This document shows positions 23,240 through 64,000 of a stretch of DNA of 64,000 bases, one piece after another. Position 1 is the first letter of the stretch; each line of letters opens with the position of its first letter. The position numbers were made by a program, and so were the translations under genes. This DNA comes from Gammaproteobacteria bacterium (lineage in GTDB: Bacteria > Pseudomonadota > Gammaproteobacteria > Steroidobacterales > GCA-2729495): contig RFHQ01000063.1 of NCBI GenBank assembly GCA_003695765.1, positions 562 through 64,561 on the forward strand, written 5' to 3'. Below the pieces are notes generated by a model. The model was not told the origin of the DNA, ran no database searches, and saw only the letters and a program-made list of their open reading frames with translations.

Positions 23240-24820
23240 TCAGGCGTAGTACTGCGCCAGGTATTCCTCGAAGCTCAGCCTGTCGCCGGCCTCGATCTCC
23301 GCCTGGCGGCGGTGGGAGTCCTCGGCTTCGGCCAGCAGCAGGGGCAGGCGGGCATTGACCTCATCGCCCAGCTCGCGGAAATAGTCGCTGTAGTCGCGGC
23401 TCAGGCGCAGGCCGAAGCTCGCCAGCGGCTCGCCGCTGGCGCGCAGTTCGGCCAGCAGGCGGGCCGACAGCGTCGCCTCCGGCTCCGCGACCCAATCCGC
23501 GTACCGTGCGCAGGCCTCGCGATATTCCGGGTGGCCGGACGCCGCCAGCAGTTCGCAGACCGCCGCCACAGCAGCGAAGATTTCGGCCGCCCAGTCCCGC
23601 AGGCGGCAGCGGCCGCCGGCCCGCGCGAGCTCGAGGCCCGGAGCACGGCCGCGCTGCGCGACCAGCGCCTGATTGTGGCGGTTCTCTGCCTCCTCGTCGT
23701 CAGCGATCGGCGGACTTTCGGCGAGCAGGCAATAGAGCAGAAAGGCCTCGACGAAGCGCGCCTGCCAGCGGTTGATGCCGATCGGTTCGAAGGGGTTGAT
23801 GTCGAGTATGCGCAGCTCGACGTATTGCACGCCGCCGCGGCGCAGGGCCAGCGTCGGCCGCTCACCGCTGCGTGCGACCCGCTTCGGCCGCACGGTGCTG
23901 TAGAACTCGTTCTCTATCTGCAACTCGTTGGCGTTCAACTGGCGGTACTCACCATCGACCAGCACGCCGATCTTCCGGTAGGCCGGATTCTCGGTGCGAA
24001 TCGCGCTTTCCAGGTCCGCGATGTACTCGTCGAGGCTGTTGGCCGACACCCGCAGGCGCTGCTGTTCGGCATTGTGGTAACCGAGATCGCCCATGCGCAG
24101 CGAAGTGGCCCACGGCGCGTAGACGGTGCCGTCGTCGAGGCGTTCCAGTCCCGCGCTGCCGCCCTTGAGGAAGCTGCGGCAGATCGCGGGCGAGGCGCCG
24201 AACAGGTACATCAGGAACCAGCCCATGCGGCGCACGTTGCGCACCAGGCCCAGATAAGCGGCGGAGCGGAACTCCGGCAATGGCGAGCGGTCGCCGCACA
24301 AGGCCTGGTATTCCGGCCAGAAGGCCTCGGGCAGCGAAAAGTTGTAGTGCAGACCGGCAATCGCCTGCATATAGCGGCCGTAGCGGTAACTGAGACCGCG
24401 CCGGTAGATGGTCTTCATCCGGCCGACGTTCGAATCCCCGTAGCGCGCGATCGGGATGTCTTCTTCGCCGCGGATACGGCAGGGCATGCTCATGGCCCAC
24501 AGCAGCTCATCACCGATGCGCCGGCAGGTGAACTGGTGCAGGTCACAGAGGAACTGCAGCGCGCCGCGCAGGTCGGCCAGCGGCGGAGTGATGAACTCCA
24601 GCAGGGCCTCGGAAAAGTCCGTGGTGATGAATCGGTTGGTCAGCGCGGATCCGAGCGCCCGGGGGTGCGGGGTCGCGGCGATGCAGCCGTCCGCCGTGAC
24701 ACGCAGGCTTTCCTTTTCGATCCCGCGCAGTGCGCCGCGCAGCAGGTCGCAGCCGCGCAGGCCGGCGAGCCGGCGCTCCAGCACGACCTGCCCGCCCGCC
24801 GGGGGATGCGTCAGCGACAT
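23240..24820 (-). CDS. gshA: Glutamate-cysteine ligase (E. coli type)
   Basis: The product is 526 aa. GIEKESLRV, TDFSEALLEFITPP, YMRIGDLGY-like LRMGDLGYHN and ELRILDINPF-type motifs are present. Confidence 0.95.
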   Translation of the reverse strand: MSLTHPPAGGQVVLERRLAGLRGCDLLRGALRGIEKESLRVTADGCIAATPHPRALGSALTNRFITTDFSEALLEFITPPLADLRGALQFLCDLHQFTCRRIGDELLWAMSMPCRIRGEEDIPIARYGDSNVGRMKTIYRRGLSYRYGRYMQAIAGLHYNFSLPEAFWPEYQALCGDRSPLPEFRSAAYLGLVRNVRRMGWFLMYLFGASPAICRSFLKGGSAGLERLDDGTVYAPWATSLRMGDLGYHNAEQQRLRVSANSLDEYIADLESAIRTENPAYRKIGVLVDGEYRQLNANELQIENEFYSTVRPKRVARSGERPTLALRRGGVQYVELRILDINPFEPIGINRWQARFVEAFLLYCLLAESPPIADDEEAENRHNQALVAQRGRAPGLELARAGGRCRLRDWAAEIFAAVAAVCELLAASGHPEYREACARYADWVAEPEATLSARLLAELRASGEPLASFGLRLSRDYSDYFRELGDEVNARLPLLLAEAEDSHRRQAEIEAGDRLSFEEYLAQYYA

Positions 24821-52452: not shown

Positions 52453-53205
52453 ATGTGCCTCGTCGCCGTTGCGGCCTCGGCCCATCCGCGCTGGCCGCTG
52501 CTGGTGCTCGGCAACCGCGACGAGTTCCACGCGCGCCCGTCCGCGGCCGCCGACTGGTGGCCCGACGATACCGGCCTTCTCGGCGGGCGTGACCTGGAAG
52601 CCGGCGGCAGCTGGCTGGCCGTGCGCCGCGATGGGCATTTCGCCGTCATCGCCAATCGCCCGCAGAAAGGCCCGCCGCGTCCGGACAGCCCCAGCCGCGG
52701 CCTGCTGGTCCGCGATTATCTCGCCAGCGGCCTGACGCCCGCGGCCTTCGCCGAATGGCTGCTCGCCCGGCGCCACGAATACGCCGGCTTTTGCCTGGCC
52801 TTCGGCGGGCCCGGCGACCTGCGCCTGATCTGCGAGCCCGGCGGCGAGCCGGAACGGCTGCTGTCCGGCCTGCGGGTGTTCAGCAATGCGCCTGCGGACC
52901 AGCGCTGGCCGAAGGTCGACTACGTCGAGCAGCAACTGCAACAGCTACTCGCCGACCGGCTCCCCGACCCGGAGGCTCTGCTGGCGCCGCTGGAGCGCCG
53001 CGCAGCGCTGCCGGCCAGCGATCCGGCACTGCCCTGGGTCGCGCTGTCGCCATTCGTCACCGGGAAGGACTACGGGACCCGCGCCGTATCGCTGTTCGCC
53101 GTCGGCGCCGATGGCCGCTGTCGCTTCGTCGAGCGCCGTTACGCCGCCGGCGGCCGCCCCGCCGGCGTCGCCGAATTCAGCTTTCCGCTGCGCGCGCCCG
53201 CCTAA
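52453..53205 (+). CDS. NRDE-family (TANGO2-like, DUF833) protein
   Basis: The N-terminal MCL with Cys2, the eponymous LGNRDEF motif and GGTWL-like GGSWLAV are present. Start taken at ATG 52453 inside a longer track ORF. Confidence 0.85.
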   Translation: MCLVAVAASAHPRWPLLVLGNRDEFHARPSAAADWWPDDTGLLGGRDLEAGGSWLAVRRDGHFAVIANRPQKGPPRPDSPSRGLLVRDYLASGLTPAAFAEWLLARRHEYAGFCLAFGGPGDLRLICEPGGEPERLLSGLRVFSNAPADQRWPKVDYVEQQLQQLLADRLPDPEALLAPLERRAALPASDPALPWVALSPFVTGKDYGTRAVSLFAVGADGRCRFVERRYAAGGRPAGVAEFSFPLRAPA

Positions 53206-53878
53206 GCGGGAGCCGGCAACTGCCGCGCCAGGAAGTCACGGATGTCGGCCAGTTCTTCCGGCGTCACCGCATGCATCATCGGGTAGGTCTTCCAGCGGAC
53301 ATCGCAGCCGGCCGCGATGAGGGCATCGCGCGATGCCTCCCCGATCCACAGTGGCAGCACGTGGTCGGCTTCGCCATGCGCCATGAAGATCGGCAGTCGC
53401 TGGTTCGCCGGCTGCAACTCGGCCGGCAGCCGGTCGGGCAACGGCAGATAACAGGACAGCGCCAGCAGCGCAGCCAGCCGTTCCGGGAAGCGCAGCGCGG
53501 TGAACAGCGCCGTCGCGCCGCCCTGCGAGAAACCGGCCAGCACGATACGCTCCGGCGGCACGCCGCGTGCCTGCTCGCGACGGATCAGTTCGCCGATCGC
53601 CTCGGCCGCGGCACGAATGCCGGCTTCGTCCTCCCGGCCCGGGCCGAAGCTGAGGATGTCGTACCAGGCGCGCATGACCATGCCGTTGTTGATCGTCACC
53701 GGCAGCAACGGCGCGTTCGGAAAGACGAAGCGCAACGGCCGGTCCGGCCCGAGATCGAGCGCCGGCACGACCGGTTCGAAGTCATGGGCGTCGGCGCCGA
53801 GGCCGTGCAGCCAGACGATCGACGCGACCGGGTCGGTCCCGGTCGTGTGCTCGAAGGTTTCCAGCGTGGTCGTCGACA
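53202..53878 (-). CDS. Phospholipase/carboxylesterase-family serine hydrolase
   Basis: IVWLHGLGADAHDF, the nucleophile elbow GFSQGG and a late HGEADHVLP are present. Start taken at MSTTTLETF (ATG 53876-53878). Confidence 0.88.
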
Positions 53879-53947
53879 TCGTGGCTCCGGGAACGCGGAG
53901 CGGCGATCTTAGCCGAGGGTCCCGGCAGGCGCAGCCGCGGACCGCGC

Positions 53948-54001
53948 TTGACTCCCGGCGCCGAACTGGTACTATGCGCATCCTTTTTTAATTATGCGCA
54001 T
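53948..54001 (+). promoter_or_regulatory. Candidate sigma-70 promoter (TTGACT-N16-TACTAT) overlapped by two copies of the palindrome ATGCGCAT spaced 20 bp apart; candidate ArgR operator
   Basis: The -35 element is at 53948-53953 and the -10 at 53970-53975. The ATGCGCAT copies are at 53974-53981 and 53994-54001. The region lies immediately upstream of the argR ATG at 54007. Confidence 0.5.
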
Positions 54002-54006
54002 TTCTT

Positions 54007-54456
54007 ATGCCGGTCGCCCGCGACAGACAGCAGCAGCGCCAGCAGGCCATCCGCGAGATCCTCGCCGAGCACCCGGTCGCCCGGCAGGCCGAGATCGTCG
54101 CGCGGCTGAAGGCGCGCGGCATCCCGGCGACCCAGTCCAGCGTCAGCCGGGACCTGCGGCAGATGGGCATCGCCAAGCTGGGAGAGGCCTATGCGCCGGC
54201 GACGGCGGCCGTCAGCGCCGACAACCCGCCGCCGCCGCCGGATTTCGTACGGGAATTGCGCGGCGCCGGCGCCAACCTGCTGGTCCTGAAAACAGCCGTC
54301 GGCGCGGCCGCGAGGGTCGCCGTGTTCCTCGACCGTTCGGGCTGGCCGGAAATCGTGGGCACCGTGTCCGGCGACGACACGATCTTCATCGCCACCGAGT
54401 CGGGCGCGGCGCAGAAACGCCTCGCCGCCCGGCTGCGGTCCCAGTTCAACTGCTGA
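54007..54456 (+). CDS. argR: Arginine repressor
   Basis: The product is 149 aa. The winged-helix region (QAEIVARLKARGIPATQSSVSRDLRQMG) and the C-terminal oligomerisation/arginine-binding region (GTVSGDDTIFIA) are present. Confidence 0.9.
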   Translation: MPVARDRQQQRQQAIREILAEHPVARQAEIVARLKARGIPATQSSVSRDLRQMGIAKLGEAYAPATAAVSADNPPPPPDFVRELRGAGANLLVLKTAVGAAARVAVFLDRSGWPEIVGTVSGDDTIFIATESGAAQKRLAARLRSQFNC

Positions 54457-54481
54457 GGCAGTCCAGCAACGAGCAGACAGC

Positions 54482-55708
54482 ATGAGCCAGAACGATCAAT
54501 ACAACGAGTCCCCGATCGTGCTCGCCTTCTCCGGCGGGCTGGATACCTCTTTCTGTGTCCCTTGGCTGAAAGAGACCTATGGACGCCCGGTGGTCACGAT
54601 GACGATCAATACCGGCGGCCTGGACGCGGCGGCCGAGCGGGACCTCGAGGAACGTGCGCTGGCGCTGGGCGCGGCGGAGCACGTGCTGGTCGAGGCGCGG
54701 CCGCGTTTCTTCGACCAGGTGCTGCGTTACCTGATCGCCGGCAACGTGCGCCGCGGGCAGTTCTACCCGCTGTGCGTCGGGGCCGAGCGCGGCATCCAGG
54801 CGACGTTGATGGCCGAGATCGCGATGCAGCTGGGCAGCGACACGGTCGCGCATGGCTGCACGGCGGCCGGCAACGACCAGGTGCGTTTCGAGGTTGCACT
54901 GCGCACGATCAATCCGGAGCTGACCGTGCTGGCGCCGGTGCGCGACAACGCCTTCGTGCGCAGCGAGCAGGTGAAGTACCTGGAGGAACGCGGCCTGCCG
55001 GTCCCGGCCAAGGGCTCGGCCTATTCGATCAACCGCGGGCTCTGGGGCGTGACAATCGGCGGCACCGAGACGCTGGATTCACGCGAATCGATTCCGGAGG
55101 ACGCCTGGGTGCTGTCGCCCGGCGCGCTGCGCGAACCGCGGGCGCCGGAGCGCCACGTGATCGCCTTCGAAGAAGGCATCCCGGTGGCGCTGGACGGCGA
55201 GCAGATGGATCCGGTGCCGCTGATCGAGCGCCTGGAGCGCCTGGGCGGCCCGTTTGCCATCGGCCGCGGCATCCATCTCGGTGACACCGTCCTCGGCACC
55301 AAGGGCCGGGTCGCTTTCGAAGCGCCGGCGGCCGAAATCCTGCTGACCGCGCATCGCGAGCTGGAAAAGCTCGTGCTCAGCGGCCCGCAGCAGCGGATCA
55401 AGGAGCTGGTCGCGGCCGCCTACGGCGACTTCGTCCACGAGGGCCGGCAACTCGACCCGGTCTGCCGCGATATCGAAGCGCTGTTGGAATCGTCGCAGGC
55501 GCGGGTCACCGGTGAGGTCACGGTGCAGTTGCGCAGCGGCAGCCTGTTCGTCGAAGGCCTGCAATCGCCGTATTCGCTGATGGCGGCCAGCAAGGGCGTC
55601 TACGGCGAAGCCGCCGGCGAATGGACGCCGCAGGATGCGCTCGGCTATTCGAAGATCCTGGCACTGAGCGGCATGCTGCAGACGCGGGCCGCGGGCGGCA
55701 AGCAATGA
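54482..55708 (+). CDS. argG: Argininosuccinate synthase
   Basis: VLAFSGGLDTS, HGCTAAGNDQVRFE and SINRGLWG are present. Confidence 0.95.
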   Translation: MSQNDQYNESPIVLAFSGGLDTSFCVPWLKETYGRPVVTMTINTGGLDAAAERDLEERALALGAAEHVLVEARPRFFDQVLRYLIAGNVRRGQFYPLCVGAERGIQATLMAEIAMQLGSDTVAHGCTAAGNDQVRFEVALRTINPELTVLAPVRDNAFVRSEQVKYLEERGLPVPAKGSAYSINRGLWGVTIGGTETLDSRESIPEDAWVLSPGALREPRAPERHVIAFEEGIPVALDGEQMDPVPLIERLERLGGPFAIGRGIHLGDTVLGTKGRVAFEAPAAEILLTAHRELEKLVLSGPQQRIKELVAAAYGDFVHEGRQLDPVCRDIEALLESSQARVTGEVTVQLRSGSLFVEGLQSPYSLMAASKGVYGEAAGEWTPQDALGYSKILALSGMLQTRAAGGKQ

Positions 55709-56766
55709 AAACCATCATCGCCGACAAGATCGCCTCGGTCGCTCAGCACCTGGACCTGAAACGCGAACTGCGCGTCAGCGAGGACATTCCCTGCGAGGAA
55801 GGTGTGCTCGTGGCCGCGGAGATCCTGAACAGCAAGTCCAGCTACAACCAGCTGGAACTGACCAGCGGACGCATGGCCAAGCTGCGCCAGGGCGATGTGA
55901 TCGTCGGCGCGCTGGGCCATCGCAAGGCTTTGTTCGGCTATTCCGGGCATCTGCCCGAGTCGCTGCGGCCCGGGGACGTCCTGCAGGTTTTGAACATCGG
56001 CGGCGTGCTCGGCGTCTGCGATTCCGTGAACGCGAACTTCGGCGCGCCCTTCGACGCCCGCGTCCTCGGCGCAGTGCTGGTGTTCCCCTACCTCGGCGAG
56101 CGCATCGGCGTGCCGGCGCGGATGGGTGTCCGGCGGCTGGACCCGGACGCGGACGGCAGCACTGGCGGCGTGCCGGTCGTGGCCATCGCCGGCACCTGCA
56201 TGAACTCCGGCAAGACCGCCGCCGCCTGCGCGCTGATCAGCCGCTTGCGCCACCTGGGCCTTGCGGTCGACGGCTTCAAGGCCACCGGCGTGTCGCTGCG
56301 CCGGGACATCCTGGCGATGGAGGACGCCGGCGCGCGGCGCACGGCGATCTTCAGCGACTTCGGCGTCGTCAGCACCACGGCTGAGAACGGGCCGGCGGTC
56401 ACGCGCATGTTGCTCGGACAACTCGCCGAGCAGCGCCCGGACGTGATCGTCTATGAACTCGGCGACGGCATACTCGGCGCCTACGGCGTCGAAGCCATCC
56501 TGCAGGATCCGGGCGTGCGCGACCACCTGTCCTGCCTGATGCTCTGCGCGAACGACCCGGTCGCGGCCTGGGGCGGTGTGAAACTGCTGCGGGAGGAATT
56601 CGACCTCGAGCCGCAGATCGTCACCGGCCCGGCGACCGACAACACCGTCGGCAAGGACATCATCCGCGAGCGGCTCGGCGTCGCCGCGATTAATGCGATC
56701 ACGGACGGCAACGAGCTCGGCGACGCCGTGGCCGCCATGCTGGGCCTCAGCGCCCAGCGCAGCTGA
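55705..56766 (+). CDS. Uncharacterised 353-aa protein embedded in the arginine operon, with an N-terminal beta-rich domain and a C-terminal P-loop domain (GTxxxSGKT)
   Basis: An ATGA overlap with the argG stop couples it to argG, and 14 nt separate it from argC. The Walker-A-like VVAIAGTCMNSGKTAAA spans residues about 158-174 and resembles the BioD/CobB/CobQ/DUF1611 type of P-loop. Third positions are GC-rich throughout. I see no similarity to ArgA, ArgJ, ArgE or GNAT proteins. Confidence 0.8.
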   Translation: MKTIIADKIASVAQHLDLKRELRVSEDIPCEEGVLVAAEILNSKSSYNQLELTSGRMAKLRQGDVIVGALGHRKALFGYSGHLPESLRPGDVLQVLNIGGVLGVCDSVNANFGAPFDARVLGAVLVFPYLGERIGVPARMGVRRLDPDADGSTGGVPVVAIAGTCMNSGKTAAACALISRLRHLGLAVDGFKATGVSLRRDILAMEDAGARRTAIFSDFGVVSTTAENGPAVTRMLLGQLAEQRPDVIVYELGDGILGAYGVEAILQDPGVRDHLSCLMLCANDPVAAWGGVKLLREEFDLEPQIVTGPATDNTVGKDIIRERLGVAAINAITDGNELGDAVAAMLGLSAQRS

Positions 56767-56780
56767 GCGGAGCGTTGCCG

Positions 56781-57836
56781 ATGCAGAGCATCCCGACATT
56801 CGTCCTCGGCGGCAGCGGTTATGTGGCCGGCGAACTGCTGAGACTGCTGGCAGTCCACCCGCTGTTCGAGCTCGCCGGCGTGCTGTCGGAGAGCCGCGCC
56901 GGCGAGCCGGTCGCGGCGACGTTCCCGTCGTTGGCGGCCGCATATCACGAGCGGCGTTTCGTCGATCGCGAAAGCCTGTTCGCGGCGCTGCCGGCCGGGC
57001 CGGCCGCGCTGTTCTCGGCCGCGCCCCACGGCGCCAGCGCGGCGCTGCTGGCCGAGGTTCTCGAGCGGGCCGCGCAGGCCGGCTGCGAGCTCCGCGTCGT
57101 CGACGTGTCTGCCGACTTCCGCTTCCGCGATCCTTCGGCCTATGCGGCCGTCTACGGCAGTCCGCATGCCGCCCCGGAATTGCTCGCGCAGTTCAGCTGC
57201 GCGCTGCCGGAGCACCTGGCCGAGGCCCGGACACCCCATGTCGCCCATCCCGGCTGTTTCGCGACTGCCTTGCTGCTGGCCGCCGTCCCGCTGTTGCGCC
57301 TGGCACTCTGTGCCGAGGATCTGCACGCCAGCGGCGTGACCGGCAGCACCGGCTCCGGCCGCGCGCCGACTGCCACCACGCATCACCCGGAACGTCACGC
57401 GAACCTCTGCGCCTACAAGCCGTTGGCGCACCGGCACGCGCCGGAAGTACAGCAGCTCTGCGAACAACTGACGGGCCGGCGGCCGCGGTTGCACTTCGTG
57501 CCGCATTCCGGACCATTCGCCCGCGGCATCCACCTGACGCTGCAGGCGCCGCTGCGCGAACCGGTCGCGGCGGACCGGCTGCGCGAGCGGCTCGCGGATT
57601 TCTATGCCGGCAGCGAATTCGTCAAGGTCCGTGACGGCACGCCGCGGCTCAAGGACGTGATCGGCAGCAATTACGCCCATCTCGGCGTGGCCAGCGACGG
57701 CGAGGCGCTGGCCGTGTTCGTGGTCATCGACAATCTGGTCAAGGGCGCCGCCGGCGGCGCGATCCAATGGATGAACCGGCTGTTCGGCCTGCCCGAGGCC
57801 AGCGGCCTGACGGCGCCGGCACTGGCCTGGGCCTGA
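56781..57836 (+). CDS. argC: N-acyl-gamma-glutamyl-phosphate reductase
   Basis: The NAD fold VLGGSGYVAGELLRLL and the catalytic Cys region HPGCFATA are present, along with the C-terminal NLVKGAAGGAIQ. The start may instead be the TTG at 56775. Confidence 0.92.
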   Translation: MQSIPTFVLGGSGYVAGELLRLLAVHPLFELAGVLSESRAGEPVAATFPSLAAAYHERRFVDRESLFAALPAGPAALFSAAPHGASAALLAEVLERAAQAGCELRVVDVSADFRFRDPSAYAAVYGSPHAAPELLAQFSCALPEHLAEARTPHVAHPGCFATALLLAAVPLLRLALCAEDLHASGVTGSTGSGRAPTATTHHPERHANLCAYKPLAHRHAPEVQQLCEQLTGRRPRLHFVPHSGPFARGIHLTLQAPLREPVAADRLRERLADFYAGSEFVKVRDGTPRLKDVIGSNYAHLGVASDGEALAVFVVIDNLVKGAAGGAIQWMNRLFGLPEASGLTAPALAWA

Positions 57837-57847
57837 GGCGCGGTCCG

Positions 57848-59005
57848 ATGGATGCACTGGCAATGGAAAGGCGGCACCTGGCGCAGGTCTATGGTCAACT
57901 GGACCTGGTGCCGGAACGGGGCGACGGCGTCTACCTGCACTGCCGCGGGCGGCGGGTACTCGATCTCTACGGCGGGCATGCGGTCGCCGCACTCGGCTAT
58001 GGTCACCCGGAACTGCTCGCCGCGCTGAACCGGCAGGCCGCCGAACTGCTGTTCCAGAGCAACGCAGTGCCGCTGCCGGTGCGCGCGCGGGCCGCCGATG
58101 CGCTGGCCGAGTTCGCACCGCCGGGCCTCGCGCGCGTGTTTTTCGTCAATACCGGCGCCGAGGCCAACGAAAACGCGCTGCGGCTGGCCTGCCGGCTCAC
58201 GGGCCGGCAACGCGTCGCTGCGATCGAACATGGCTTTCACGGGCGCAGCGCCGCGGCCGGCGCGGTCACCTGGGGCGCGCGCGATCGCTGGTATGCGTTC
58301 CCGCGCACGCCTTTCGACGTCGACTTCATTCCGCGCGACGACGTAGCCGCGGTCGAGCAATTGGTGACCGGCGACACCGCAGCCGTGATCCTGGAGCTGG
58401 TGCAGGGCATCGCCGGCGCCGTCGAGCTGCAGCCGGCCTTCGTGCAGGCCGTCGCCCGCGCCTGCGAGCGCCACGGCGCATTGCTGATCGTCGACGAGGT
58501 GCAGACCGGCATGGGCCGTTGTGGCGCACCGTTCGCGACCGATCTCTACGGCCTGCAGCCCGATATCCTGAGCACGGCCAAGTCACTCGCGGCCGGCTTT
58601 CCCTGCGGCGCCGTGCTGATGACCGAAGCGGTCGCGAGCGGCCTCGGCAAGGGCGATCTCGGCACGACCTTCGGCGGCGGGCCGCTGGCCTGCGCGCTGG
58701 TCGAAACCGTGATCCGCGTGATCCGGCGGGACGGCCTGATCGACAACGTGAATCGGCTGCACGCACGGCTTGCCGCGGCGCTGCCCCTGGGCCCGGCCGC
58801 CAGCCTGCAAGGACGCGGCTTCCTCGCCGGCCTGCGGCTGACCCGGCCGGCCGCCGACGTGCAGCGGGAACTGCTGGCGCGGGACATCCTCGTGGGCTCG
58901 AGCAGCGACCCGATGGTCCTGCGACTGCTGCCCCCGCTGATTCTCGCCGACGCACAGCTGGACGAACTGCTGGAAGCGCTGGCCGACTTGCCGGCCGGCG
59001 TCTGA
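57848..59005 (+). CDS. argD: Acyl-ornithine aminotransferase (class III PLP aminotransferase)
   Basis: GHAVAALGYGHP, NTGAEANE, FHGRS, DEVQTGMGR and TFGGGP are present. Start taken at ATG 57848 within the longer track ORF. Confidence 0.9.
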   Translation: MDALAMERRHLAQVYGQLDLVPERGDGVYLHCRGRRVLDLYGGHAVAALGYGHPELLAALNRQAAELLFQSNAVPLPVRARAADALAEFAPPGLARVFFVNTGAEANENALRLACRLTGRQRVAAIEHGFHGRSAAAGAVTWGARDRWYAFPRTPFDVDFIPRDDVAAVEQLVTGDTAAVILELVQGIAGAVELQPAFVQAVARACERHGALLIVDEVQTGMGRCGAPFATDLYGLQPDILSTAKSLAAGFPCGAVLMTEAVASGLGKGDLGTTFGGGPLACALVETVIRVIRRDGLIDNVNRLHARLAAALPLGPAASLQGRGFLAGLRLTRPAADVQRELLARDILVGSSSDPMVLRLLPPLILADAQLDELLEALADLPAGV

Positions 59006-59022
59006 ACGGAGAAGGTATCGCG

Positions 59023-60036
59023 ATGAAAGAATTTCACGATCTCGCAGACTTCACGGCCGAGGAGATCCAGCAGCTGCTGGACCTGGCCGCACGCCTGAAA
59101 CGGCAGCCCGAGCCGCGGGCACTGGAGGGCAAGGTCATGGCCTTGCTGTTCATGAGCCCGTCGCTGCGCACGCTGGCCTCCTTCCAGGCGGCGATGCACC
59201 GGCTGGGCGGCGGCGCCTTCGTGATTTCGCCGGACATGTCGATTCACGGCCTCGAGACCCGGCCGGGCATCGTCATGGACGGCATGGCCGCCGAACACAT
59301 CCGTGAGGCGGTGCCGGTGATCGCCTCCTACGCCGATGTCATGGGCATCCGCGCCTTCGCCGAGCGCCGCAGCCTGGAACACGACCTCGCCGACCGGGAA
59401 TACCAGGCGATGCGCGGCCTCGTACAGCTGCCGCTGATCAACATGGAATCGGCGATCCAGCACCCCTGTCAGAGCCTGGCCGACTGGCAGACGCTGGACG
59501 AACTCGGCATCCCGCGCCAGGGCGGGCGCTTCGTGCTGAGCTGGGCTTCGCATCCGAACGCGCTGCCGCTGGCCGTGCCGGCGACGACGGTGAAAATGGC
59601 GGCGATGCGGGGCATGGACGTCACCGTACTGCGGCCCGACGGTTTCGAGCTGCCCGAGGCGATCATGCAGCAGGCGCGGCAGCTGGCCGCGGCTTCCGGC
59701 GGCTCGGTCACGGAGACCGACGAACGCGCCGAAGCGATGCGGGATGCGCATGTGATCTACGCCAAGTCCTGGTCATCGACGCGCCACTACGGCGACAAGC
59801 TCGCCGATGCCGAGTTGCGCCGCCAGCACGAGGACTGGTGTGTGGATGAAGACTGGTTCGCCACCGCCCGGCCGGACTGCCGCTTCATGCATTGCCTGCC
59901 GGTGCGGCGCGGCGTCGTCGTCGCCGACCGGATCCTCGACGGACCGCGCAGCGTCGTGATCCAGGAAGCGCAGAACCGGATGTACGCGCAGATGGCTGTG
60001 CTGCACGCGATGCTGGCCGGCGGGAGCAAGCCCTGA
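59023..60036 (+). CDS. argF: N-acyl-L-ornithine carbamoyltransferase (argF' class: acetyl- or succinyl-ornithine transcarbamylase), not a canonical OTCase
   Basis: SPSLRTL replaces STRTR. The protein carries VMDGMAAEHI, INMES..HPCQSLAD and HCLPVRR, and overall resembles Xanthomonas AOTCase and Bacteroides SOTCase as I remember them. Confidence 0.88.
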   Translation: MKEFHDLADFTAEEIQQLLDLAARLKRQPEPRALEGKVMALLFMSPSLRTLASFQAAMHRLGGGAFVISPDMSIHGLETRPGIVMDGMAAEHIREAVPVIASYADVMGIRAFAERRSLEHDLADREYQAMRGLVQLPLINMESAIQHPCQSLADWQTLDELGIPRQGGRFVLSWASHPNALPLAVPATTVKMAAMRGMDVTVLRPDGFELPEAIMQQARQLAAASGGSVTETDERAEAMRDAHVIYAKSWSSTRHYGDKLADAELRRQHEDWCVDEDWFATARPDCRFMHCLPVRRGVVVADRILDGPRSVVIQEAQNRMYAQMAVLHAMLAGGSKP

Positions 60037-60971
60037 TGGACACGCTCAAGAACCGCGACATCGTCGTCGCCGCGCTCAAGCACGCGGCGCCGTACGTGCG
60101 CCTGTACAAGGGCAAGACCTTCGTGCTCAAGGCCGGCGGCGAGATCTTCGCCAGCGTGGACAGCACGCGGGCGCTGGTCGAGCAGATCGCGATCCTGCAC
60201 CAGGTCGGCATCCGCGTCGTACTGGTGCACGGCGGCGGCCCGCAATCGACGAAACTCGCCGAGGCACTCGGCCTGCCAACGCAGTTCGTCCAGGGACGCC
60301 GGGTGACCGACGAGCACGCGCTCGAAGTCGCCGCAATGGTGCTGAACGGCCAGATCAACACGCGCATCCTGGCTGCCTGCCGCGATCTCGAACTGCCGGC
60401 GGTTGGCATCAGCGGCGTCGATGCGGGCCTGATCCGCGCGCACAAGCGCCCGCCGGTCGAGGTCGCAGGCCACGACGCCGGGCCGGTGGACTACGGCTAC
60501 GTAGGAGACATCGATTCGGTCGATGCCGAAGTCCTGCGCACGCAACTGGCCAGCGGCCTGATGCCGGTGATCAGCCCGCTGTCCGCCGACCGTGGCGGCA
60601 CACTGCTGAATATCAACGCCGACACCGTCGCCGCGGCCATCGCGGCCGAACTGGGCGCCGAGAAACTGATCCTGACCACCGGCGCGCCGGGCATCCTCGA
60701 GGAGCGGGACGACCCGCGCTCGGTCGTCTCCTACATCGATCTCGACGGCCTGCGGCGGCTGCGCGACCGCGGCGCGCTGGCAGAAGGCATGCTGCCGAAG
60801 GCCGCGGCCATCGAGGCCGCGATCAACGGTGGCGTGCCGCGCGTCCACGTGATCTCCTACAAGCTGCCGGACAGCCTGCTGCTGGAAGTCTTCACCAACG
60901 AAGGCACCGGCACGCTCGTGGTCGAGAACATCGCCACGCTGACGCCGGCGGAGCAGGCGCCGGGCGGCTGA
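60036..60971 (+). CDS. argB: N-acyl-glutamate kinase (stand-alone, 311 aa, with no GNAT domain)
   Basis: APYVRLYKGKTFVLKAGGE, VLVHGGGPQ, NINADT and the C-terminal GTGT are present. The ATG shares one nucleotide with the argF' stop (TGATG). Confidence 0.93.
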   Translation: MDTLKNRDIVVAALKHAAPYVRLYKGKTFVLKAGGEIFASVDSTRALVEQIAILHQVGIRVVLVHGGGPQSTKLAEALGLPTQFVQGRRVTDEHALEVAAMVLNGQINTRILAACRDLELPAVGISGVDAGLIRAHKRPPVEVAGHDAGPVDYGYVGDIDSVDAEVLRTQLASGLMPVISPLSADRGGTLLNINADTVAAAIAAELGAEKLILTTGAPGILEERDDPRSVVSYIDLDGLRRLRDRGALAEGMLPKAAAIEAAINGGVPRVHVISYKLPDSLLLEVFTNEGTGTLVVENIATLTPAEQAPGG

Positions 60972-60983
60972 GGACGGACGAAG

Positions 60984-62186
60984 ATGCAACGGCTCTGGGA
61001 CAAGGGAACGCCGCTGGACGAGCGGGTGCTGCGTTACACCGCCGGCGAAGACCATCTGCTGGATGCCCGCCTGGTCGAGTACGACCTGCGCGCGTCGCTG
61101 GCCCATGCGCAGATGCTCAACCGCCAGCAGCTGCTCTCGGACGAGGATCTCGCCGCCATCGAGGCCGGCTTGCAGGAACTCGGCGAGGCCCATGCGCGCG
61201 GCGAGTGGCAGATCACGCTGGACGACGAGGACGTGCACACGGCGCTGGAAAAGCGCCTGACCGAGCGCATCGGCGAAGCCGGCAAGCGCATACACCTGGG
61301 CCGCTCGCGCAACGACCAGGTGCTGGCGGCGCTGCGCCTGTATCTGCTCGATGCCGCCGACAGCCTGGAAGGGGCGGCCGATGCCGTCGCCGATGCGCTG
61401 GAGGCGCTGGGCGAACGCGAGGCCGACACCGAACTGCCCGGCTACACGCACATGCAGCAGGCCATGCCCAGCTCCGTGCACCTGTGGGCGCAGGGCTTCG
61501 CCGCGGAACTGCGCGACGATGCCGAGGGCATCGCCGCGAGCCGCCGGCGGATCTCGCGCAACCCGCTGGGCAGCGCGGCCGGCTACGGTGTGCCGGGCCT
61601 GCCGATCGACCGCGACTTCACCTGCGAGGCGCTGGGTTTCGACACGGTGCAGGAACCGGTGACCGCGGTGCAGCTGTCGCGCGGCAAGGCCGAGGCCGGC
61701 CTGGTCTTCGAACTCTGCCTGCTGCTGCAGGACCTGGGCCGGCTGGCCACCGACCTGCTGCTGTTCTACACGCAGGAATTCGCCTACATCAGCTTGCCGG
61801 AAGAAATGACCACGGGTTCGTCGATCATGCCCCAGAAGCGCAACCCGGACGTGCTGGAACTGGTGCGCGGTGCGACCGCGACGCTGCAGGGCAGCCTGGT
61901 CGAAATCCTGAACCTGCCGGCCAAGCTGCCGTCCGGCTATCAGCGCGATCTGCAGCGCCTGAAACCGCCGCTGTTCCGCGCGATCGACCTGAGCCTGGAC
62001 TCCTGCGCGATCATGGAGAAACTGCTGGACGGCGTCGAGTTCCTGCCGGACAACATTCTGCTGGACCCCGGCATCTACGCGGCCGGGCGCGCGAACCGGC
62101 TGGTCCTGGAAGAGGGCATCAGCTTTCGCGAGGCCTATCGCCGCGTGGCCGAGGAAATCCGGCGCGAGGCAGACGACGATGACTGA
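60984..62186 (+). CDS. argH: Argininosuccinate lyase (short 400-aa form)
   Basis: LWDKG..., GRSRNDQV, YTHMQQAMP and the signature GSSIMPQKRNPD are present. Confidence 0.93.
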   Translation: MQRLWDKGTPLDERVLRYTAGEDHLLDARLVEYDLRASLAHAQMLNRQQLLSDEDLAAIEAGLQELGEAHARGEWQITLDDEDVHTALEKRLTERIGEAGKRIHLGRSRNDQVLAALRLYLLDAADSLEGAADAVADALEALGEREADTELPGYTHMQQAMPSSVHLWAQGFAAELRDDAEGIAASRRRISRNPLGSAAGYGVPGLPIDRDFTCEALGFDTVQEPVTAVQLSRGKAEAGLVFELCLLLQDLGRLATDLLLFYTQEFAYISLPEEMTTGSSIMPQKRNPDVLELVRGATATLQGSLVEILNLPAKLPSGYQRDLQRLKPPLFRAIDLSLDSCAIMEKLLDGVEFLPDNILLDPGIYAAGRANRLVLEEGISFREAYRRVAEEIRREADDDD

Positions 62187-62391
62187 GAGCCGGCTGCGGG
62201 CCGCCCTGCTCGTCGCTGTCGTGCTGCTGGCCGGCTGCGGCCTGAAGGGCGGACTCTACCTGCCCGAGGCCGAAACGCCGGCCGGACCCGCGGCCGCCGA
62301 ACCGGCCGGTGGCGGCCCCGCTGGCGATCGGGTCGTGGACCCCGGCGATGATCCGGAGCGCGAACGGCAACGGGGCAACGGCGGTGACTGA
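62179..62391 (+). CDS. lptM: LptM/YifL-like small lipoprotein
   Basis: The lipobox LLAGC is followed by GLKGGLYLP, which matches the E. coli YifL motif TGCGLKGPLYFP. The remainder is Pro/Ala/Gly-rich. It overlaps the argH stop by 8 nt. Confidence 0.7.
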   Translation: MTESRLRAALLVAVVLLAGCGLKGGLYLPEAETPAGPAAAEPAGGGPAGDRVVDPGDDPERERQRGNGGD

Positions 62392-64000
62392 ACGGCCGCA
62401 GCTGGTGCTGGTGGACGGCTCGTCCTACCTGTACCGCGCCTTCCATGCCCTGCCGCCGCTGACGACCTCGGACGGCCGGCCCACCGGCGCCGTGCACGGC
62501 GTGCTCAACATGCTGAACAAGCTGCGCCGCGAACTGGCGCCGGCCCATGTCGCCGTGGTCTTCGACGCCCCCGGCAAGACTTTTCGTGACGAGCTGTTCG
62601 AGCAGTACAAGGCCAACCGGCCACCGATGCCGGATGAACTGAGGCAACAGATCCCGCCGCTGCTGGAAGCAATCGAGGCCAGCGGACTGCCGCTGCTGCA
62701 GGTCGACGGCGTGGAGGCGGACGACGTCATCGGCACGCTGACCCGCCGCGCCGTCGCGGCCGGCATGGAGGTCGTGATCGTCAGCGGCGACAAGGACCTC
62801 GCTCAGCTGGTCGGCGAGCAGGTCACGCTGCTCGACACCATGCCGCGCGGCCGCAGTCAGGAACCGCGCGTCACCGACCGCGGCGGCGTGCAGGCGCGTT
62901 TCGGCGTGCGTCCCGATCAGATCATCGATTACCTCGCACTGGTCGGGGACAGCTCGGACAACATCCCGGGCGTGCCCGGCGTCGGCGAAAAGACGGCCCG
63001 GGCGCTGCTGGCGCACTATGCGCACATCGACGACTTGCTCGCGGATCTCGACGGCGTCGCGAGGCTCGACATCCGCGGCGCGAAGACGCTCGCCAGGCGG
63101 ATCGCCGAGAACCGCGAACGCCTGCTCCTGTCGCGCGAACTCGCGACGATTCGCTGTGATCTCGACCTGCCGCTCGCGCCCGACGAACTCCGGCCGCAGG
63201 CAACGGACCGCGAACGGCTGCGCGAGCTGTATCGCCGCCTGGAGCTGCGTCGGCTGCTGGAGAACCTGGAGCGCGATGCCAGCGCAACGCCGCCCGCCAT
63301 CGCCCGCGATGCCACGGCCGGCAACGATTATGCGGTCGTCCAGGACGCGGAGGCGCTGCAGGCCTGGCTGGAGAAGATCGCCGCAGCCGAGCGGGTCGCT
63401 TTCGACACCGAGACCGACAGCCTCGATTACATGCACGCCCGGATCGTCGGGCTGTCCTTCGCTGTGGCCCCGGGCGAGGCGGCCTACGTGCCGCTGGCGC
63501 ATTGCGGTCCGGACGCGCCGCGGCAACTCGACCGGGACCGCGTGCTGGCGGTCCTGCGCGACTGGCTGGAAGACCCGCGGCGGGAAAAGATCGGACATCA
63601 CCTGAAATTCGATGCGCATGTGCTGCGCAATCACGGCCTGCAACTGCGCGGCATGGCCTGGGACACGATGCTGGAGTCCTACGTGCTCAACAGCGCGGCG
63701 ACCCGGCACGACCTCGATTCGGTCGCCCGCAAGTATCTCGGCGCAGAGACCACGCGCTATGCGGATGTGGCCGGCAAGGGCGCCAAGCAGATCAGCTTCG
63801 ACCAGGTGCCGCTGGCGCAGGCTGCGCCCTATGCGGCCGAGGACGCAGACATCAGCCTGCAGCTGCACGAACGCCTGTGGCCGGAGATCGAGGCGACCGG
63901 CGCGCTGGCCGCCGTCTACACGGAGATCGAACGGCCGCTGATCCCGGTGCTGCTGGACATGGAGGCCACGGGCGTCTATGTCGACAGCGGCCAACTCGCC
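62384..64000 (+). CDS. polA: DNA polymerase I, N-terminal 539 codons (5' nuclease domain and the start of the 3'-5' exonuclease domain); continues beyond the window
   Basis: It is not in the supplied track. My own translation reads (V)[43 protein letters not shown]...[27 protein letters not shown]...[11 protein letters not shown]...[11 protein letters not shown]...[11 protein letters not shown]. The GTG at 62384 overlaps the lptM stop. An alternative in-frame ATG lies at 62348. Confidence 0.93.
   Translation, partial: [539 protein letters not shown]

What the first reader, a model, noticed from the sequence alone, without database searches (positions are those of the whole stretch)
55705..56766. 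Unknown P-loop protein occupying the 'missing enzyme' slot of the arginine operon; candidate non-GNAT N-acyl-glutamate synthase or other novel step
Seen in the sequence: a 353-aa ORF is coupled to argG by an ATGA overlap and lies 14 nt before argC. The operon around it is tightly packed: argR-argG-X-argC-argD-argF'-argB-argH. X has an N-terminal beta-rich domain of about 150 aa. It is followed by a domain with the Walker-A-like loop VVAIAGTCMNSGKTAAA (nt about 56176-56226), of the GTxxxxGKT type I associate with BioD/CobB/CobQ/DUF1611-like enzymes. The operon encodes no ArgA, ArgJ, GNAT protein or ArgE-type deacylase. Its ArgB is a stand-alone 311-aa kinase, unlike the Xanthomonas-type bifunctional ArgA/B with a C-terminal GNAT domain. 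Established knowledge, from memory: Bacteroidetes clusters with the same argF' class place a GNAT gene between argR and argG. The first-step enzyme of such acyl-cycle variants has repeatedly turned out to be non-orthologous between lineages (ArgA, ArgJ, short NAGS, ArgH-A fusions). A DUF1611 member, DgcN, has been reported as a glutamate N-acetyltransferase. Inference: X may supply the missing acyl-glutamate-forming (or deacylating) activity by a different fold.
Basis: partly seen in the sequence, partly recalled or inferred. Interest (0 to 1): 0.8.

Follow-up and report, generated by a model that had tools for sequence, protein, structure and literature searches.

The report
Predicted non-GNAT N-succinylglutamate synthase gene
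A conserved gene of unknown fold family inside an arginine-synthesis operon most likely encodes the operon's missing first enzyme, which would make N-succinyl-glutamate; this idea was already published as an untested prediction for its Steroidobacter ortholog.

Summary
ORF X (55705-56766, 353 aa) overlaps the argG stop (ATGA) and lies inside a tightly packed argR-argG-X-argC-argD-argF'-argB-argH operon. That operon has no ArgA, ArgJ, GNAT or ArgE gene. X matches no Pfam or NCBIfam model at threshold, yet it has more than 7,000 homologs.

The gene order is conserved in all 80 related genome loci examined. Members at 30-45% identity still sit next to argC, argB and argD. ArgF' carries Ala at the acetyl/succinyl specificity position, so the intermediates are probably succinylated.

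X is 68% identical to Steroidobacter denitrificans ACG33_RS14135.

What this analysis adds:
- The DgcN/DUF1611 link is only generic P-loop similarity; BioD and CTP synthetase match at least as well.
- The BioD-type catalytic residues are invariant across the family.
- The N-terminal beta domain has no solved structural relative.
- Archaeal homologs sit beside RimK-type ligases, and one also beside an AstE/AspA-type deacylase.

The acyl donor (succinyl-CoA, or succinate plus ATP) and the missing desuccinylase remain open.

The parts
53948..53975 (+). Sigma-70-like promoter (TTGACT, 16 nt spacer, TACTAT) upstream of argR. Probable single promoter of the operon (inferred).
   Evidence: It is the only promoter-like match in 53800-62500. 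No convincing terminator lies inside the cluster.
53973..54001 (+). Two TATGCGCAT palindrome-containing boxes (53973-53981 and 53993-54001), 20 bp apart, overlapping the -10 element. Candidate ArgR operator (inferred).
   Evidence: These are the only two copies in the 64 kb window (0.23 expected by chance). The 10-mer TATGCGCATC is present upstream of argR in 33 of 69 related loci, and Steroidobacter loci have TGCATATTTATGCA instead.
54007..54456 (+). argR, arginine repressor (149 aa).
   Evidence: Pfam Arg_repressor and Arg_repressor_C, E about 1e-17.
54482..55708 (+). argG, argininosuccinate synthase (408 aa). Its stop overlaps the X start codon (ATGA).
   Evidence: TIGR00032 scores 301 bits against a cut-off of 268. 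Junction sequence.
55705..56766 (+). X, 353 aa. Predicted alternative (non-GNAT) N-succinyl-L-glutamate synthase and ortholog of S. denitrificans ACG33_RS14135.
   Evidence: No Pfam or NCBIfam hit at threshold. 68% identity to ACG33_14140, E 2e-180. Conserved operon position in 80 of 80 loci.
55705..56160 (+). X N-terminal all-beta domain (aa 1-152). Conserved Gly-rich loops, with R73 and P84.
   Evidence: AF2 pLDDT 94-97. No PDB structural match (best E 1.3, TM at most 0.25). Conservation.
56167..56763 (+). X C-terminal BioD-like (SIMIBI-class) P-loop domain (aa 155-353).
   Evidence: Foldseek: BioD E 2.4e-6 with TMt 0.57-0.60, followed by SRP GTPases, HypB and CTP synthetase. Profile against PDB sequences: BioD 4e-4.
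56176..56226 (+). Walker-A segment VVAIAGTCMNSGKTAAA. G169 and K170 are invariant; T171 is conserved in at least 90% of members.
56278..56307 (+). Segment K192 to D201 (FKATGVSLRRD). The invariant Lys aligns with BioD K37. D201 is conserved in at least 90% of members.
   Evidence: HMMER alignments to BioD. Invariance.
56437..56469 (+). Walker-B-like strand PDVIVYELGDG with invariant E251 (compare BioD ...VEGAGG).
   Evidence: The comparison with the BioD motif is from established knowledge.
56781..57836 (+). [quoted passage not shown]
   Evidence: TIGR01850 scores 294 bits against a cut-off of 234.
57848..59005 (+). argD, N-acylornithine aminotransferase (probable start 57848; the longest ORF starts at 57767).
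   Evidence: Pfam Aminotran_3, E 2.8e-81. Start position.
59023..60036 (+). argF', N-acylornithine carbamoyltransferase (337 aa) with Ala at the E92-equivalent position. Predicted to be specific for N-succinylornithine.
   Evidence: NF003384 scores 341 bits against a cut-off of 288. The alignment to X. campestris AOTCase shows 'DGMAAEHI' against 'DGDTEEHI', and the best PDB hit is the E92A mutant 3L02. The position is Ala in 69 of 71 related loci.
60036..60971 (+). argB, stand-alone N-acylglutamate kinase (311 aa). Its start overlaps the argF' stop (TGATG).
   Evidence: TIGR00761 scores 218 bits against a cut-off of 151. It has only the AA_kinase domain and no GNAT.
60984..62186 (+). argH, argininosuccinate lyase, short form (400 aa).
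   Evidence: TIGR00838 scores 303 bits against a cut-off of 279.5 and covers profile positions 13-393 of 455.

Best explanation
X is the missing first enzyme of a succinyl-type arginine pathway. It attaches a succinyl group to the alpha-amino group of L-glutamate, giving N-succinyl-L-glutamate.

The operon's other enzymes then process that product. ArgB phosphorylates it, ArgC reduces it, ArgD transaminates it, and ArgF' (Ala-92 type) carbamoylates it to N-succinylcitrulline. A desuccinylase encoded elsewhere would release citrulline for ArgG and ArgH. That enzyme has not been identified. A DapE-like M20 enzyme, as proposed for Bacteroides BT3549, is an inference.

X is a two-domain protein. 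The C-terminal domain is a BioD-like P-loop with an intact Walker A (GKT), an invariant Lys after strand 2, an invariant Glu in a Walker-B-like strand, and conserved Asp residues. It would bind the nucleotide part of the acyl donor. The novel N-terminal beta domain, with conserved Gly-rich loops and Arg73, would help bind glutamate.

Shown here: gene context, orthology, fold class, residue conservation and the ArgF' specificity residue. Inferred: the reaction itself.

Of the 0.6 confidence that the product is N-acyl-glutamate, I assign about 0.35 to succinyl-CoA as donor (the DgcN precedent) and about 0.25 to succinate plus ATP (BioD/CobQ-type chemistry).
For: 1. The operon lacks exactly this step, and X is its only unassigned gene.

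2. The order argR-argG-X-argC-argD-argF'-argB-argH holds in all related loci long enough to show it. X is as conserved (66-84% identity) as ArgG and ArgF'.

3. At 30-45% identity the family is still next to argC, argB and argD in clusters that lack argG and argH: L081, L089, L091 and L057. This ties X to the N-acyl-glutamate end of the pathway.

4. X is 68% identical to S. denitrificans ACG33_14140, which sits in the same operon. For that protein Price et al. report three things: no ArgA in a prototrophic genome, homologs that never co-occur with ArgA homologs, and some clusters that carry a separate argE candidate.

5. ArgF' has Ala, Val or Pro at the specificity position in 71 of 71 loci, which indicates succinyl intermediates.

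6. The closest folds are all enzymes that form C-N bonds or transfer acyl groups: BioD, CTP synthetase and DgcN.

7. Independent contexts support the same role. Archaeal homologs sit beside RimK-type glutamate ligases, and one also sits beside an AstE/AspA-family N-acyl-Glu/Asp amidohydrolase. This is the slot where an N-acyl-amino-acid-forming enzyme would be expected.

8. In Bacteroides a GNAT (BT3761) in the arg operon performs this step, so non-orthologous replacement at this step has a precedent.
Against: There is no biochemical or genetic test of any family member; Price et al. made a prediction only.

S. denitrificans also lacks ArgE, so 'missing step' logic alone cannot separate ArgA from ArgE.

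The similarity to the one characterised acyltransferase of this fold class (DgcN) is generic. It ranks 50th, with TMq 0.37, equal to BioD and SRP GTPases. Pfam DUF1611_C is below threshold, and the N-terminal domains are unrelated.

Invariant residues of the Mg/gamma-phosphate type suggest NTP use, which a simple acyl-CoA transferase would not need.

Absence of ArgA or ArgJ could be checked only within this 64 kb window, not across the whole genome.
Confidence: 0.6

Rival explanations
1. Same product, different chemistry. X is an ATP-dependent succinate:L-glutamate ligase. It would phosphorylate succinate to an acyl phosphate, which the glutamate amine then attacks, as in BioD, CobB/CobQ and CTP synthetase. 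No CoA thioester would be involved. This reading is nested within the 0.6 given to the best explanation.
For: BioD is the best structural hit (E 2.4e-6, TMt 0.57-0.60), with CTP synthetase close behind. BioD is also the best sequence-profile hit (4e-4).

Sub-threshold NCBIfam and Pfam matches go to CobB, CobQ, BioD and CbiA.

The BioD catalytic constellation appears conserved: GKT, an invariant Lys192 aligned to BioD K37, D201, and an invariant E251 in hhhhE-x-G.
Against: DgcN, from the same broad clade, is reported to use acetyl-CoA (Yu et al. 2023, as cited). P-loop conservation therefore does not prove ATP turnover.

No ligase for N-acyl-glutamate is known in arginine synthesis, and succinyl-CoA is a ready donor.
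Confidence: 0.25
2. X is the missing N-succinylcitrulline desuccinylase, replacing ArgE.
For: The deacylase is also missing from the operon, from the window and, per Price et al., from S. denitrificans. In Xanthomonas-type clusters the deacylase gene follows argG; this point is from memory.
Against: To my knowledge no P-loop or BioD-like enzyme is an amidohydrolase.

Linkage to argC, argB and argD persists in clusters that lack argF', argG or argH (L081, L057).

Some homolog clusters carry separate argE candidates, and X anti-correlates with ArgA.

One archaeal homolog sits next to a dedicated AstE/AspA-type deacylase.
Confidence: 0.05
3. X is an ArgJ-like transsuccinylase. It would move the succinyl group from N-succinylcitrulline (or N-succinylornithine) to glutamate, filling both gaps at once.
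For: Both ArgA and ArgE are unaccounted for in S. denitrificans. A single recycling enzyme would be the most economical explanation.
Against: No nucleophile of the ArgJ type is conserved, and the fold is unrelated.

The conserved NTP-binding machinery would have no purpose in this reaction.

A recycling enzyme still needs an anaplerotic synthase.

Some clusters have separate argE candidates.
Confidence: 0.05
4. X is not a pathway enzyme. It would be an accessory or regulatory NTPase of the SIMIBI class, for example a chaperone, metallochaperone or assembly factor for an arginine enzyme, as with HypB, MobB or MeaB.
For: Foldseek hits to HypB and SRP GTPases score as well as the hits to enzymes. 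MobB is the most frequent sub-threshold family match.
Against: No NKxD-type base-specificity motif and no metal-binding Cys/His motif is conserved.

None of the operon's enzymes is known to need such a factor.

The anti-correlation with ArgA and the recurrent pairing with ligase and deacylase genes point to a catalytic role.
Confidence: 0.08

Closest known systems
[quoted passage not shown]
   Same: X is its ortholog: 68% identity over the full length, E 2e-180. The operon argR-argG-X-argC-argD-argF'-argB-argH is identical. ArgF' has the same succinyl-type signature.
   Different: The organism differs (an uncultured gammaproteobacterial MAG). There is no functional difference. The published assignment is itself an untested prediction.
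DgcN, D-glutamate N-acetyltransferase (DUF1611 family; PDB 7XRJ)
   Same: Both have a BioD-like P-loop domain. DgcN acylates the amino group of glutamate, so it gives a precedent for an acyltransferase in this fold class (Foldseek E 2.2e-4).
   Different: Pfam DUF1611_C is below threshold (12 bits against 25). There is no DUF1611_N domain; the N-terminal domain of X is all-beta and has no PDB match. The 7XRJ match ranks 50th and is no better than BioD, SRP or CTPS matches. The X-family profile does not hit 7XRJ by sequence even at E of 10 or less. DgcN acts in D-Glu catabolism with an acetyl group; X would act in L-Glu biosynthesis with a succinyl group.
Dethiobiotin synthetase BioD, with the related CobB/CobQ amidotransferases and the CTP synthetase synthase domain
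   Same: These give the best structural and profile matches. They share a GTxxxxGKT Walker A, a Lys after strand 2, and an acidic residue in an hhhhE-G strand. All of them form C-N bonds through phosphorylated intermediates (established knowledge).
   Different: X has an extra 150-aa beta domain. The curated BioD, CobB and CobQ models are far below their cut-offs. The genomic context is arginine synthesis, not biotin, cobalamin or CTP synthesis. ATP use by X has not been shown.
GNAT-type N-succinylglutamate synthase of Bacteroidetes (BT3761), and classical ArgA or bifunctional ArgA/B
   Same: They have the same predicted reaction and sit in an arg operon. The pathway with succinylated intermediates is the same.
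   Different: The fold is unrelated. X has no GNAT or AA-kinase similarity.

Membership tests
ACG33_RS14135 family (predicted alternative ArgA, Price et al.) | Full-length sequence homology to ACG33_RS14135 | tested here: met
   BLASTP gives 68% identity over 354 aa, E 2e-180. P0317 is named ACG33_14140 [S. denitrificans].
ACG33_RS14135 family (predicted alternative ArgA, Price et al.) | Encoded inside an arginine-biosynthesis gene cluster | tested here: met
   True in the window, in 80 of 80 related loci and in the S. denitrificans locus L092.
ACG33_RS14135 family (predicted alternative ArgA, Price et al.) | Neighbouring ArgF' has A, P, S or V at position 92 (succinyl type) | tested here: met
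   Ala in the window. Ala in 69 of 71 loci, Val in one and Pro in one.
ACG33_RS14135 family (predicted alternative ArgA, Price et al.) | Genome lacks canonical ArgA or ArgJ | not testable with these tools
   Only 64 kb is available. No GNAT, ArgJ or M20 protein was found among 38 window proteins scanned. The claim for S. denitrificans comes.
ACG33_RS14135 family (predicted alternative ArgA, Price et al.) | N-succinyl-L-glutamate synthase activity | not testable with these tools
   No experiment exists for any member.
DUF1611 / DgcN | Pfam PF07755 (DUF1611_C) at or above the gathering score | tested here: not met
   12.2 bits against a cut-off of 25, E 0.12. 33 of 53 family members match weakly, with a best E of 1.3e-5, which is no better than CbiA or MobB.
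DUF1611 / DgcN | DUF1611-type N-terminal domain | tested here: not met
   No Pfam hit on residues 1-150. The confident all-beta model has no PDB match, 7XRJ included.
DUF1611 / DgcN | Specific structural similarity to 7XRJ, beyond the generic P-loop fold | tested here: inconclusive
   7XRJ ranks 50th, with E 2.2e-4, TMq 0.37 and rmsd 7.5 A. BioD gives TMq 0.34-0.39, SRP GTPases 0.36-0.41 and CTPS 0.37-0.42.
DUF1611 / DgcN | Acetyl-CoA-dependent N-acetylation of glutamate | not testable with these tools
   This needs a biochemical assay. The Yu et al. 2023 paper was not available.
BioD-like SIMIBI P-loop enzymes (fold class) | Walker A GxxxxGK[TS] preceded by GT | tested here: met
   The motif is GTCMNSGKT. 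G169 and K170 are invariant, and T171 is conserved in at least 90% of members.
BioD-like SIMIBI P-loop enzymes (fold class) | Lys after strand 2 (BioD K37) and an acidic residue in the Walker-B-like strand (BioD E115) | tested here: met
   K192 is invariant and aligns with the Lys of the BioD KP motif. E251 is invariant within VYELGDG.
BioD-like SIMIBI P-loop enzymes (fold class) | Fold similarity to solved members | tested here: met
   Foldseek gives BioD 3of5 E 2.4e-6 with TMt 0.57-0.60.
BioD proper (dethiobiotin synthetase) | TIGR00347 at its curated cut-off | tested here: not met
   Only 14 of 53 members match, and weakly (best E 1.1e-4). X itself does not match.
GNAT-type ArgA, ArgJ, ArgE (M20) | Any domain-level similarity | tested here: not met
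   No such Pfam or NCBIfam hit even at E of 10 or less (pfam) or 1 or less (ncbifam).

The most novel reading that the evidence does not exclude
X founds a new enzyme family that makes N-acyl acidic amino acids without CoA. It would be an ATP-dependent succinate:L-glutamate ligase, built from a BioD-like P-loop domain and a beta domain with no solved relative. This would give arginine biosynthesis a chemically new first step. The archaeal branch of the same family would work with RimK-type ligases, and in one lineage an AstE/AspA deacylase, to make N-acyl-Glu/Asp peptides.
Probability: 0.25. Interest if true: 0.8.

Novelty: already known. Interest (0 to 1): 0.45.

Why it matters
If confirmed, the first committed step of arginine synthesis would have yet another non-orthologous solution, this time from the P-loop NTPase world rather than GNAT or ArgJ. 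The family is abundant in uncultured Gammaproteobacteria (Steroidobacteraceae, Woeseiaceae and Chromatiales-like MAGs) and reaches into Archaea. It has more than 7,000 sequence clusters, all of them labelled 'hypothetical'.

A correct assignment would close a recurrent gap in metabolic reconstructions and auxotrophy predictions for these environmental lineages. It would also prevent two kinds of mis-annotation: of X as 'DUF1611/DgcN', and of the neighbouring ArgF' as an acetylornithine enzyme.

The prediction is already published, so the remaining value is experimental. The open items are the acyl donor (succinyl-CoA or ATP plus succinate), the role of the novel N-terminal domain, and the identity of the still-missing desuccinylase.

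Tried and rejected
1. The first literature search for DUF1611/DgcN was swamped by 'DGCN' machine-learning papers. The DgcN structure paper (PMC10030869) is not held, so DgcN's ligand-binding residues could not be compared.

2. I looked for a DUF1611 seed to run a profile-profile comparison with the X family. hmmsearch with the X C-domain profile against all ORFs of the 1.27 Mb of held DNA found none, so no such comparison was made.

3. I looked for a conserved flanking gene that could be the missing deacylase. The upstream carboxylesterase-like ORF (53202-53981, minus strand) is conserved in only 17 loci, and nothing else is universal. This idea was rejected.

4. Pfam scans of 30 further likely genes in the window found no GNAT, ArgJ or M20 protein. 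A few short stretches of the window were not scanned.

5. Foldseek with the N-terminal domain alone found nothing significant.

6. An E. coli-type ARG-box core (TGAATwwwwATTCA, up to 3 mismatches) is absent upstream of argR in the window. A different palindromic repeat is present instead.

7. Genome-wide absence of ArgA, ArgJ and ArgE in the source organism could not be tested.
Full report
**Observation.** It spans 55705-56766 on the + strand and encodes 353 aa. Its ATG overlaps the argG stop as ATGA, and its stop lies 14 nt before the argC ATG at 56781. A longer in-frame ORF from 55621 is not used, because all homologs begin at MKTIIADK. The Walker-A-like segment VVAIAGTCMNSGKTAAA is residues 158-174, nt 56176-56226.

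Pfam and NCBIfam assign every neighbour:
- argR, 54007-54456
- argG, 54482-55708
- argC, 56781-57836
- argD, about 57848-59005
- argF', 59023-60036
- argB, 60036-60971 (311 aa, kinase domain only)
- argH, 60984-62186

None of them is ArgA, ArgJ, a GNAT protein or an M20 deacylase. Junctions are tight: gaps of 25, -4, 14, 11, 17, -1 and 12 nt. The only sigma-70-like promoter match in the region lies upstream of argR.

**X is a real, widespread and unannotated family.** X gets no Pfam or NCBIfam hit at E below 0.01. At permissive thresholds only the P-loop region matches: MobB at E 0.037 and DUF1611_C at E 0.12 (12 bits against a cut-off of 25). The word-indexed search returned more than 7,000 homologs. 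All are 'hypothetical', none has a Pfam domain, and the top hits are 72-84% identical proteins from uncultured Gammaproteobacteria and Chromatiales MAGs. The window itself matches an NCBI MAG protein, D6727_04605. The exhaustive search of 50%-identity representatives found 1,455 clusters at E of 0.001 or less and 201 at E of 1e-30 or less. Full-length members reach down to about 30% identity.

**Synteny.** I mapped the window's eight proteins onto 80 loci from GTDB species genomes. These include Steroidobacteraceae, Woeseiaceae, Sinobacteraceae and Chromatiales-like MAGs. Every locus long enough to show it has the order argR-argG-X-argC-argD-argF'-argB-argH: 55 complete, the rest cut by contig ends. 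The one exception, L057, has argR-X-argC-argB. X is 66-84% identical across these loci, which is as conserved as ArgG and ArgF' and more conserved than ArgC.

More distant members keep the association with the early steps only:
- L089 (45% identity): argR-X-argC-argD-argF-argB
- L091 (about 39%): X-argC-argD-argF'
- L081 (30%): X-argC-argB, with argD adjacent

None of these has argG or argH nearby. The constant partners are therefore the enzymes that consume N-acyl-glutamate.

[quoted passage not shown] GapMind 2026' (bioRxiv 10.1101/2024.10.14.618325). [quoted passage not shown]
- S. denitrificans DSM 18526 grows in minimal medium but lacks ArgA.
- Its arg cluster contains a hypothetical protein, ACG33_RS14135 (A0A127FCT3), whose homologs are virtually always in arg operons.
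- Those homologs never co-occur with ArgA homologs.
- Foldseek gives a weak hit to DgcN (7XRJ; rmsd 5.6 A, E 1.4e-7).
- The neighbouring ArgF' proteins mostly have A, P, S or V at position 92, implying succinylated intermediates.
- ArgE is also missing, although some homolog clusters contain argE candidates.

The protein was added to GapMind as a predicted ArgA, and it was not tested experimentally. No other paper in the library mentions the family.

I confirmed the link directly. A search seeded with a Steroidobacter locus recovered 'hypothetical protein ACG33_14140 [Steroidobacter denitrificans]'. It is 68% identical to X over 354 residues, E 2e-180, and lies in the identical operon on CP011971.1.

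**Acyl group.** The window's ArgF' passes the NCBIfam 'N-acetylornithine carbamoyltransferase' model, scoring 341 bits against a cut-off of 288. Aligned to the X. campestris enzyme, however, it reads DGMAAEHI against DGDTEEHI. It therefore has Ala at the E92 position, and its single best PDB hit is the E92A mutant 3L02. According to Shi et al. 2007, as cited by Price et al., E92 to A, P, S or V switches specificity to N-succinylornithine. In my loci the residue is Ala in 69 of 71, Val in L089 and Pro in L091. The pathway here is therefore most likely the succinyl variant known from Bacteroidetes. There a GNAT (BT3761) in the arg operon is the genetically supported N-succinylglutamate synthase, and a DapE-like protein (BT3549) is the candidate N-succinylcitrulline desuccinylase.

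**Structure.** AlphaFold2 with a 53-sequence alignment of diverse members gave a very confident model, with pLDDT 96.9 and pTM 0.93. Residues 1 to about 150 form an all-beta domain, and residues 155-353 form an alpha/beta P-loop domain.

Foldseek of the full model against the PDB gave these hits:

| Target | E-value | TM-score |
|---|---|---|
| BioD (dethiobiotin synthetase), top hit | 2.4e-6 | TMt 0.57-0.60; TMq 0.34-0.39 |
| SRP54/FtsY, HypB, CTP synthetase | next in the ranking | TMq 0.34-0.42 |
| DgcN (7XRJ), rank 50 | 2.2e-4 | TMq 0.37; rmsd 7.5 A; 14% identity |

Measured by query-normalised TM-score, all of these are equivalent. The structure places X in the SIMIBI/BioD-like P-loop class and does not single out DgcN.

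Sequence profiles agree with this:
- The family profile hits BioD (4e-4), FtsY and MobB among PDB sequences, but not 7XRJ even at E of 10 or less.
- Member-by-member Pfam scans give sub-threshold CbiA (35 of 53 members), MobB (35 of 53), DUF1611_C (33 of 53) and AAA_26 (13 of 53).
- NCBIfam gives sub-threshold MobB, CobB, BioD and CobQ.

The N-terminal domain, modelled on its own (pLDDT 94.3), has no significant PDB match; the best has E 1.3 and TM at most 0.25. X is therefore not a DUF1611 member by any test I could run. UniRef's label 'DUF1611 domain-containing' for ACG33_14140 overstates the relationship.

**Conserved residues.** Across 53 members at 27-67% identity to X, P84, G169, K170, K192, E251 and D284 are invariant. 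S11, G33, E51, G71, R73, T171, D201, D218, Y260 and others are conserved in at least 90%. K192 aligns with the Lys of the BioD KP motif (K37 in E. coli BioD). E251 sits at the end of a hydrophobic strand (VYELGDG), like BioD E115; that comparison rests on established knowledge. The domain thus keeps a full nucleotide/Mg-type constellation. This fits binding of an NTP or of the 3'-phospho-ADP part of an acyl-CoA, and it does not tell the two apart.

**Independent context from the divergent branch.** All four non-arg prokaryotic contexts I sampled place the homolog next to RimK-type ATP-grasp ligases:
- L084: the RimK-type gene is divergent.
- L088: the RimK-type gene lies between two X paralogs, with a class-V aminotransferase and an M20 peptidase nearby.
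- L093/L094 (archaeal): an AstE/AspA-family gene (the succinylglutamate desuccinylase / aspartoacylase family) lies immediately upstream, and a RimK-type gene is convergent.
- L097/L098 (haloarchaeal): the X homolog is translationally coupled to one RimK-type gene and faces a second.

RimK-family ligases add glutamate to carboxylates, and AstE/AspA enzymes hydrolyse N-succinyl-Glu or N-acetyl-Asp. From memory, the animal trio NAT8L/RIMKLA-B/ASPA and the bacterial GNAT-ATP-grasp fusion Ngg show the same logic, with an N-acyltransferase in the slot that X homologs occupy here. This is circumstantial, but it independently supports a family-wide activity that forms N-acyl-Glu or N-acyl-Asp. It also argues against X being the deacylase.

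**Mechanistic conclusion.** The best explanation (0.6) is that X makes N-succinyl-L-glutamate for ArgB. Within that 0.6, I assign about 0.35 to succinyl-CoA as donor (DgcN precedent) and about 0.25 to ATP-dependent ligation of succinate (BioD/CobQ/CTPS-type chemistry). The second option is the most novel reading that the evidence does not exclude.

The rivals are less likely. A desuccinylase role (0.05) and an ArgJ-like transsuccinylase role (0.05) are disfavoured by the fold, by linkage to argC and argB in clusters without argF' and argG, by separate argE candidates in some clusters, and by the adjacent dedicated deacylase in one archaeal lineage. An accessory NTPase role (0.08) is disfavoured by the lack of GTPase or metal-binding motifs and by the anti-correlation with ArgA.

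The desuccinylase remains unidentified. No candidate lies in the operon, in the conserved flanks or among 38 window proteins scanned. A DapE-like M20 enzyme encoded elsewhere is a reasonable inference from Bacteroides.

**Verdict.** The novelty class is 'already known' as a prediction. Interest is moderate (0.45), because the family is large, unannotated and directly testable, and because the acyl donor and the missing desuccinylase are still open.

Noticed in passing
window 59023-60036 (argF'): ArgF' passes NCBIfam's 'N-acetylornithine carbamoyltransferase' equivalog model. It nevertheless has Ala at the E92-equivalent specificity position, as do 69 of 71 related loci. Automated annotation will probably mislabel a succinylornithine enzyme as an acetylornithine enzyme.
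   Followed up: yes
window 53948-54001: Two TATGCGCAT boxes lie 20 bp apart and overlap the -10 element of the only sigma-70-like promoter match. They are the only two copies in the window, and the motif recurs upstream of argR in many related loci. This is a candidate ArgR operator that differs from the E. coli ARG-box consensus.
   Followed up: partly
window 60984-62186 (argH): ArgH is short at 400 aa. It matches positions 13-393 of the 455-position TIGR00838 profile and gives no hit beyond Lyase_1. The same length is seen in related loci and in S. denitrificans (401 aa).
   Followed up: partly
L093/L094 6984-9923; L097/L098; L088; L084: Divergent X-family members (31-36% identity), several of them archaeal, are not in arg operons. 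They sit beside RimK-type ATP-grasp ligases. One lineage also has an AstE/AspA-family deacylase, and others have a Peptidase_C39 protein with weak mechanosensitive-channel-domain hits. This may be a pathway for an N-acyl-Glu/Asp peptide.
   Followed up: partly
L088 1-231 and 1292-2353: Two X-family paralogs flank a single RimK-type gene on one contig. The upstream fragment translates to ...VVTGPATDTVIGRKIV..., which matches the conserved C-terminus of X.
   Followed up: partly
L086/L087 8001-9086 (P0240): A 33%-identical X homolog lies on contigs whose other genes look eukaryotic (PP2C, RNase III, MRP-S33, CCDC39-like). The family may extend into a eukaryote.
   Followed up: no
P0258 (row of alignment A1): In this member many conserved Gly positions read Trp, for example NLWWVAWI for NLGGVAGI and EFWDWVYWEYWV for ELGDG.LG.YGV. 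That pattern is expected if UGA = Gly (genetic code 25, Gracilibacteria/Absconditabacteria) was translated as Trp. It suggests the family occurs in that lineage.
   Followed up: no
P0317; PMC12363236: UniRef labels the S. denitrificans ortholog 'DUF1611 domain-containing'. A metagenome survey reports dgcN as common in Woeseiales, a group that carries X in its arg operon (L056). X-family genes might be counted as dgcN in such surveys.
   Followed up: no
window 62178-64000: Directly after argH, overlapping its stop, is a small lipoprotein-like ORF (…LLAGCGLKGGLYLPE…) followed by a long ORF that runs off the window end. S. denitrificans has a 4HBT thioesterase gene, then LptM and polA, after argH (L092).
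   Followed up: partly
window 14556-18140 and 23240-24820: A fused hydantoinase A/B (5-oxoprolinase-like) gene of 1,194 aa and a glutamate-cysteine ligase gene lie within 10 kb of each other. Both belong to glutamate/glutathione metabolism and are unrelated to the finding.
   Followed up: no
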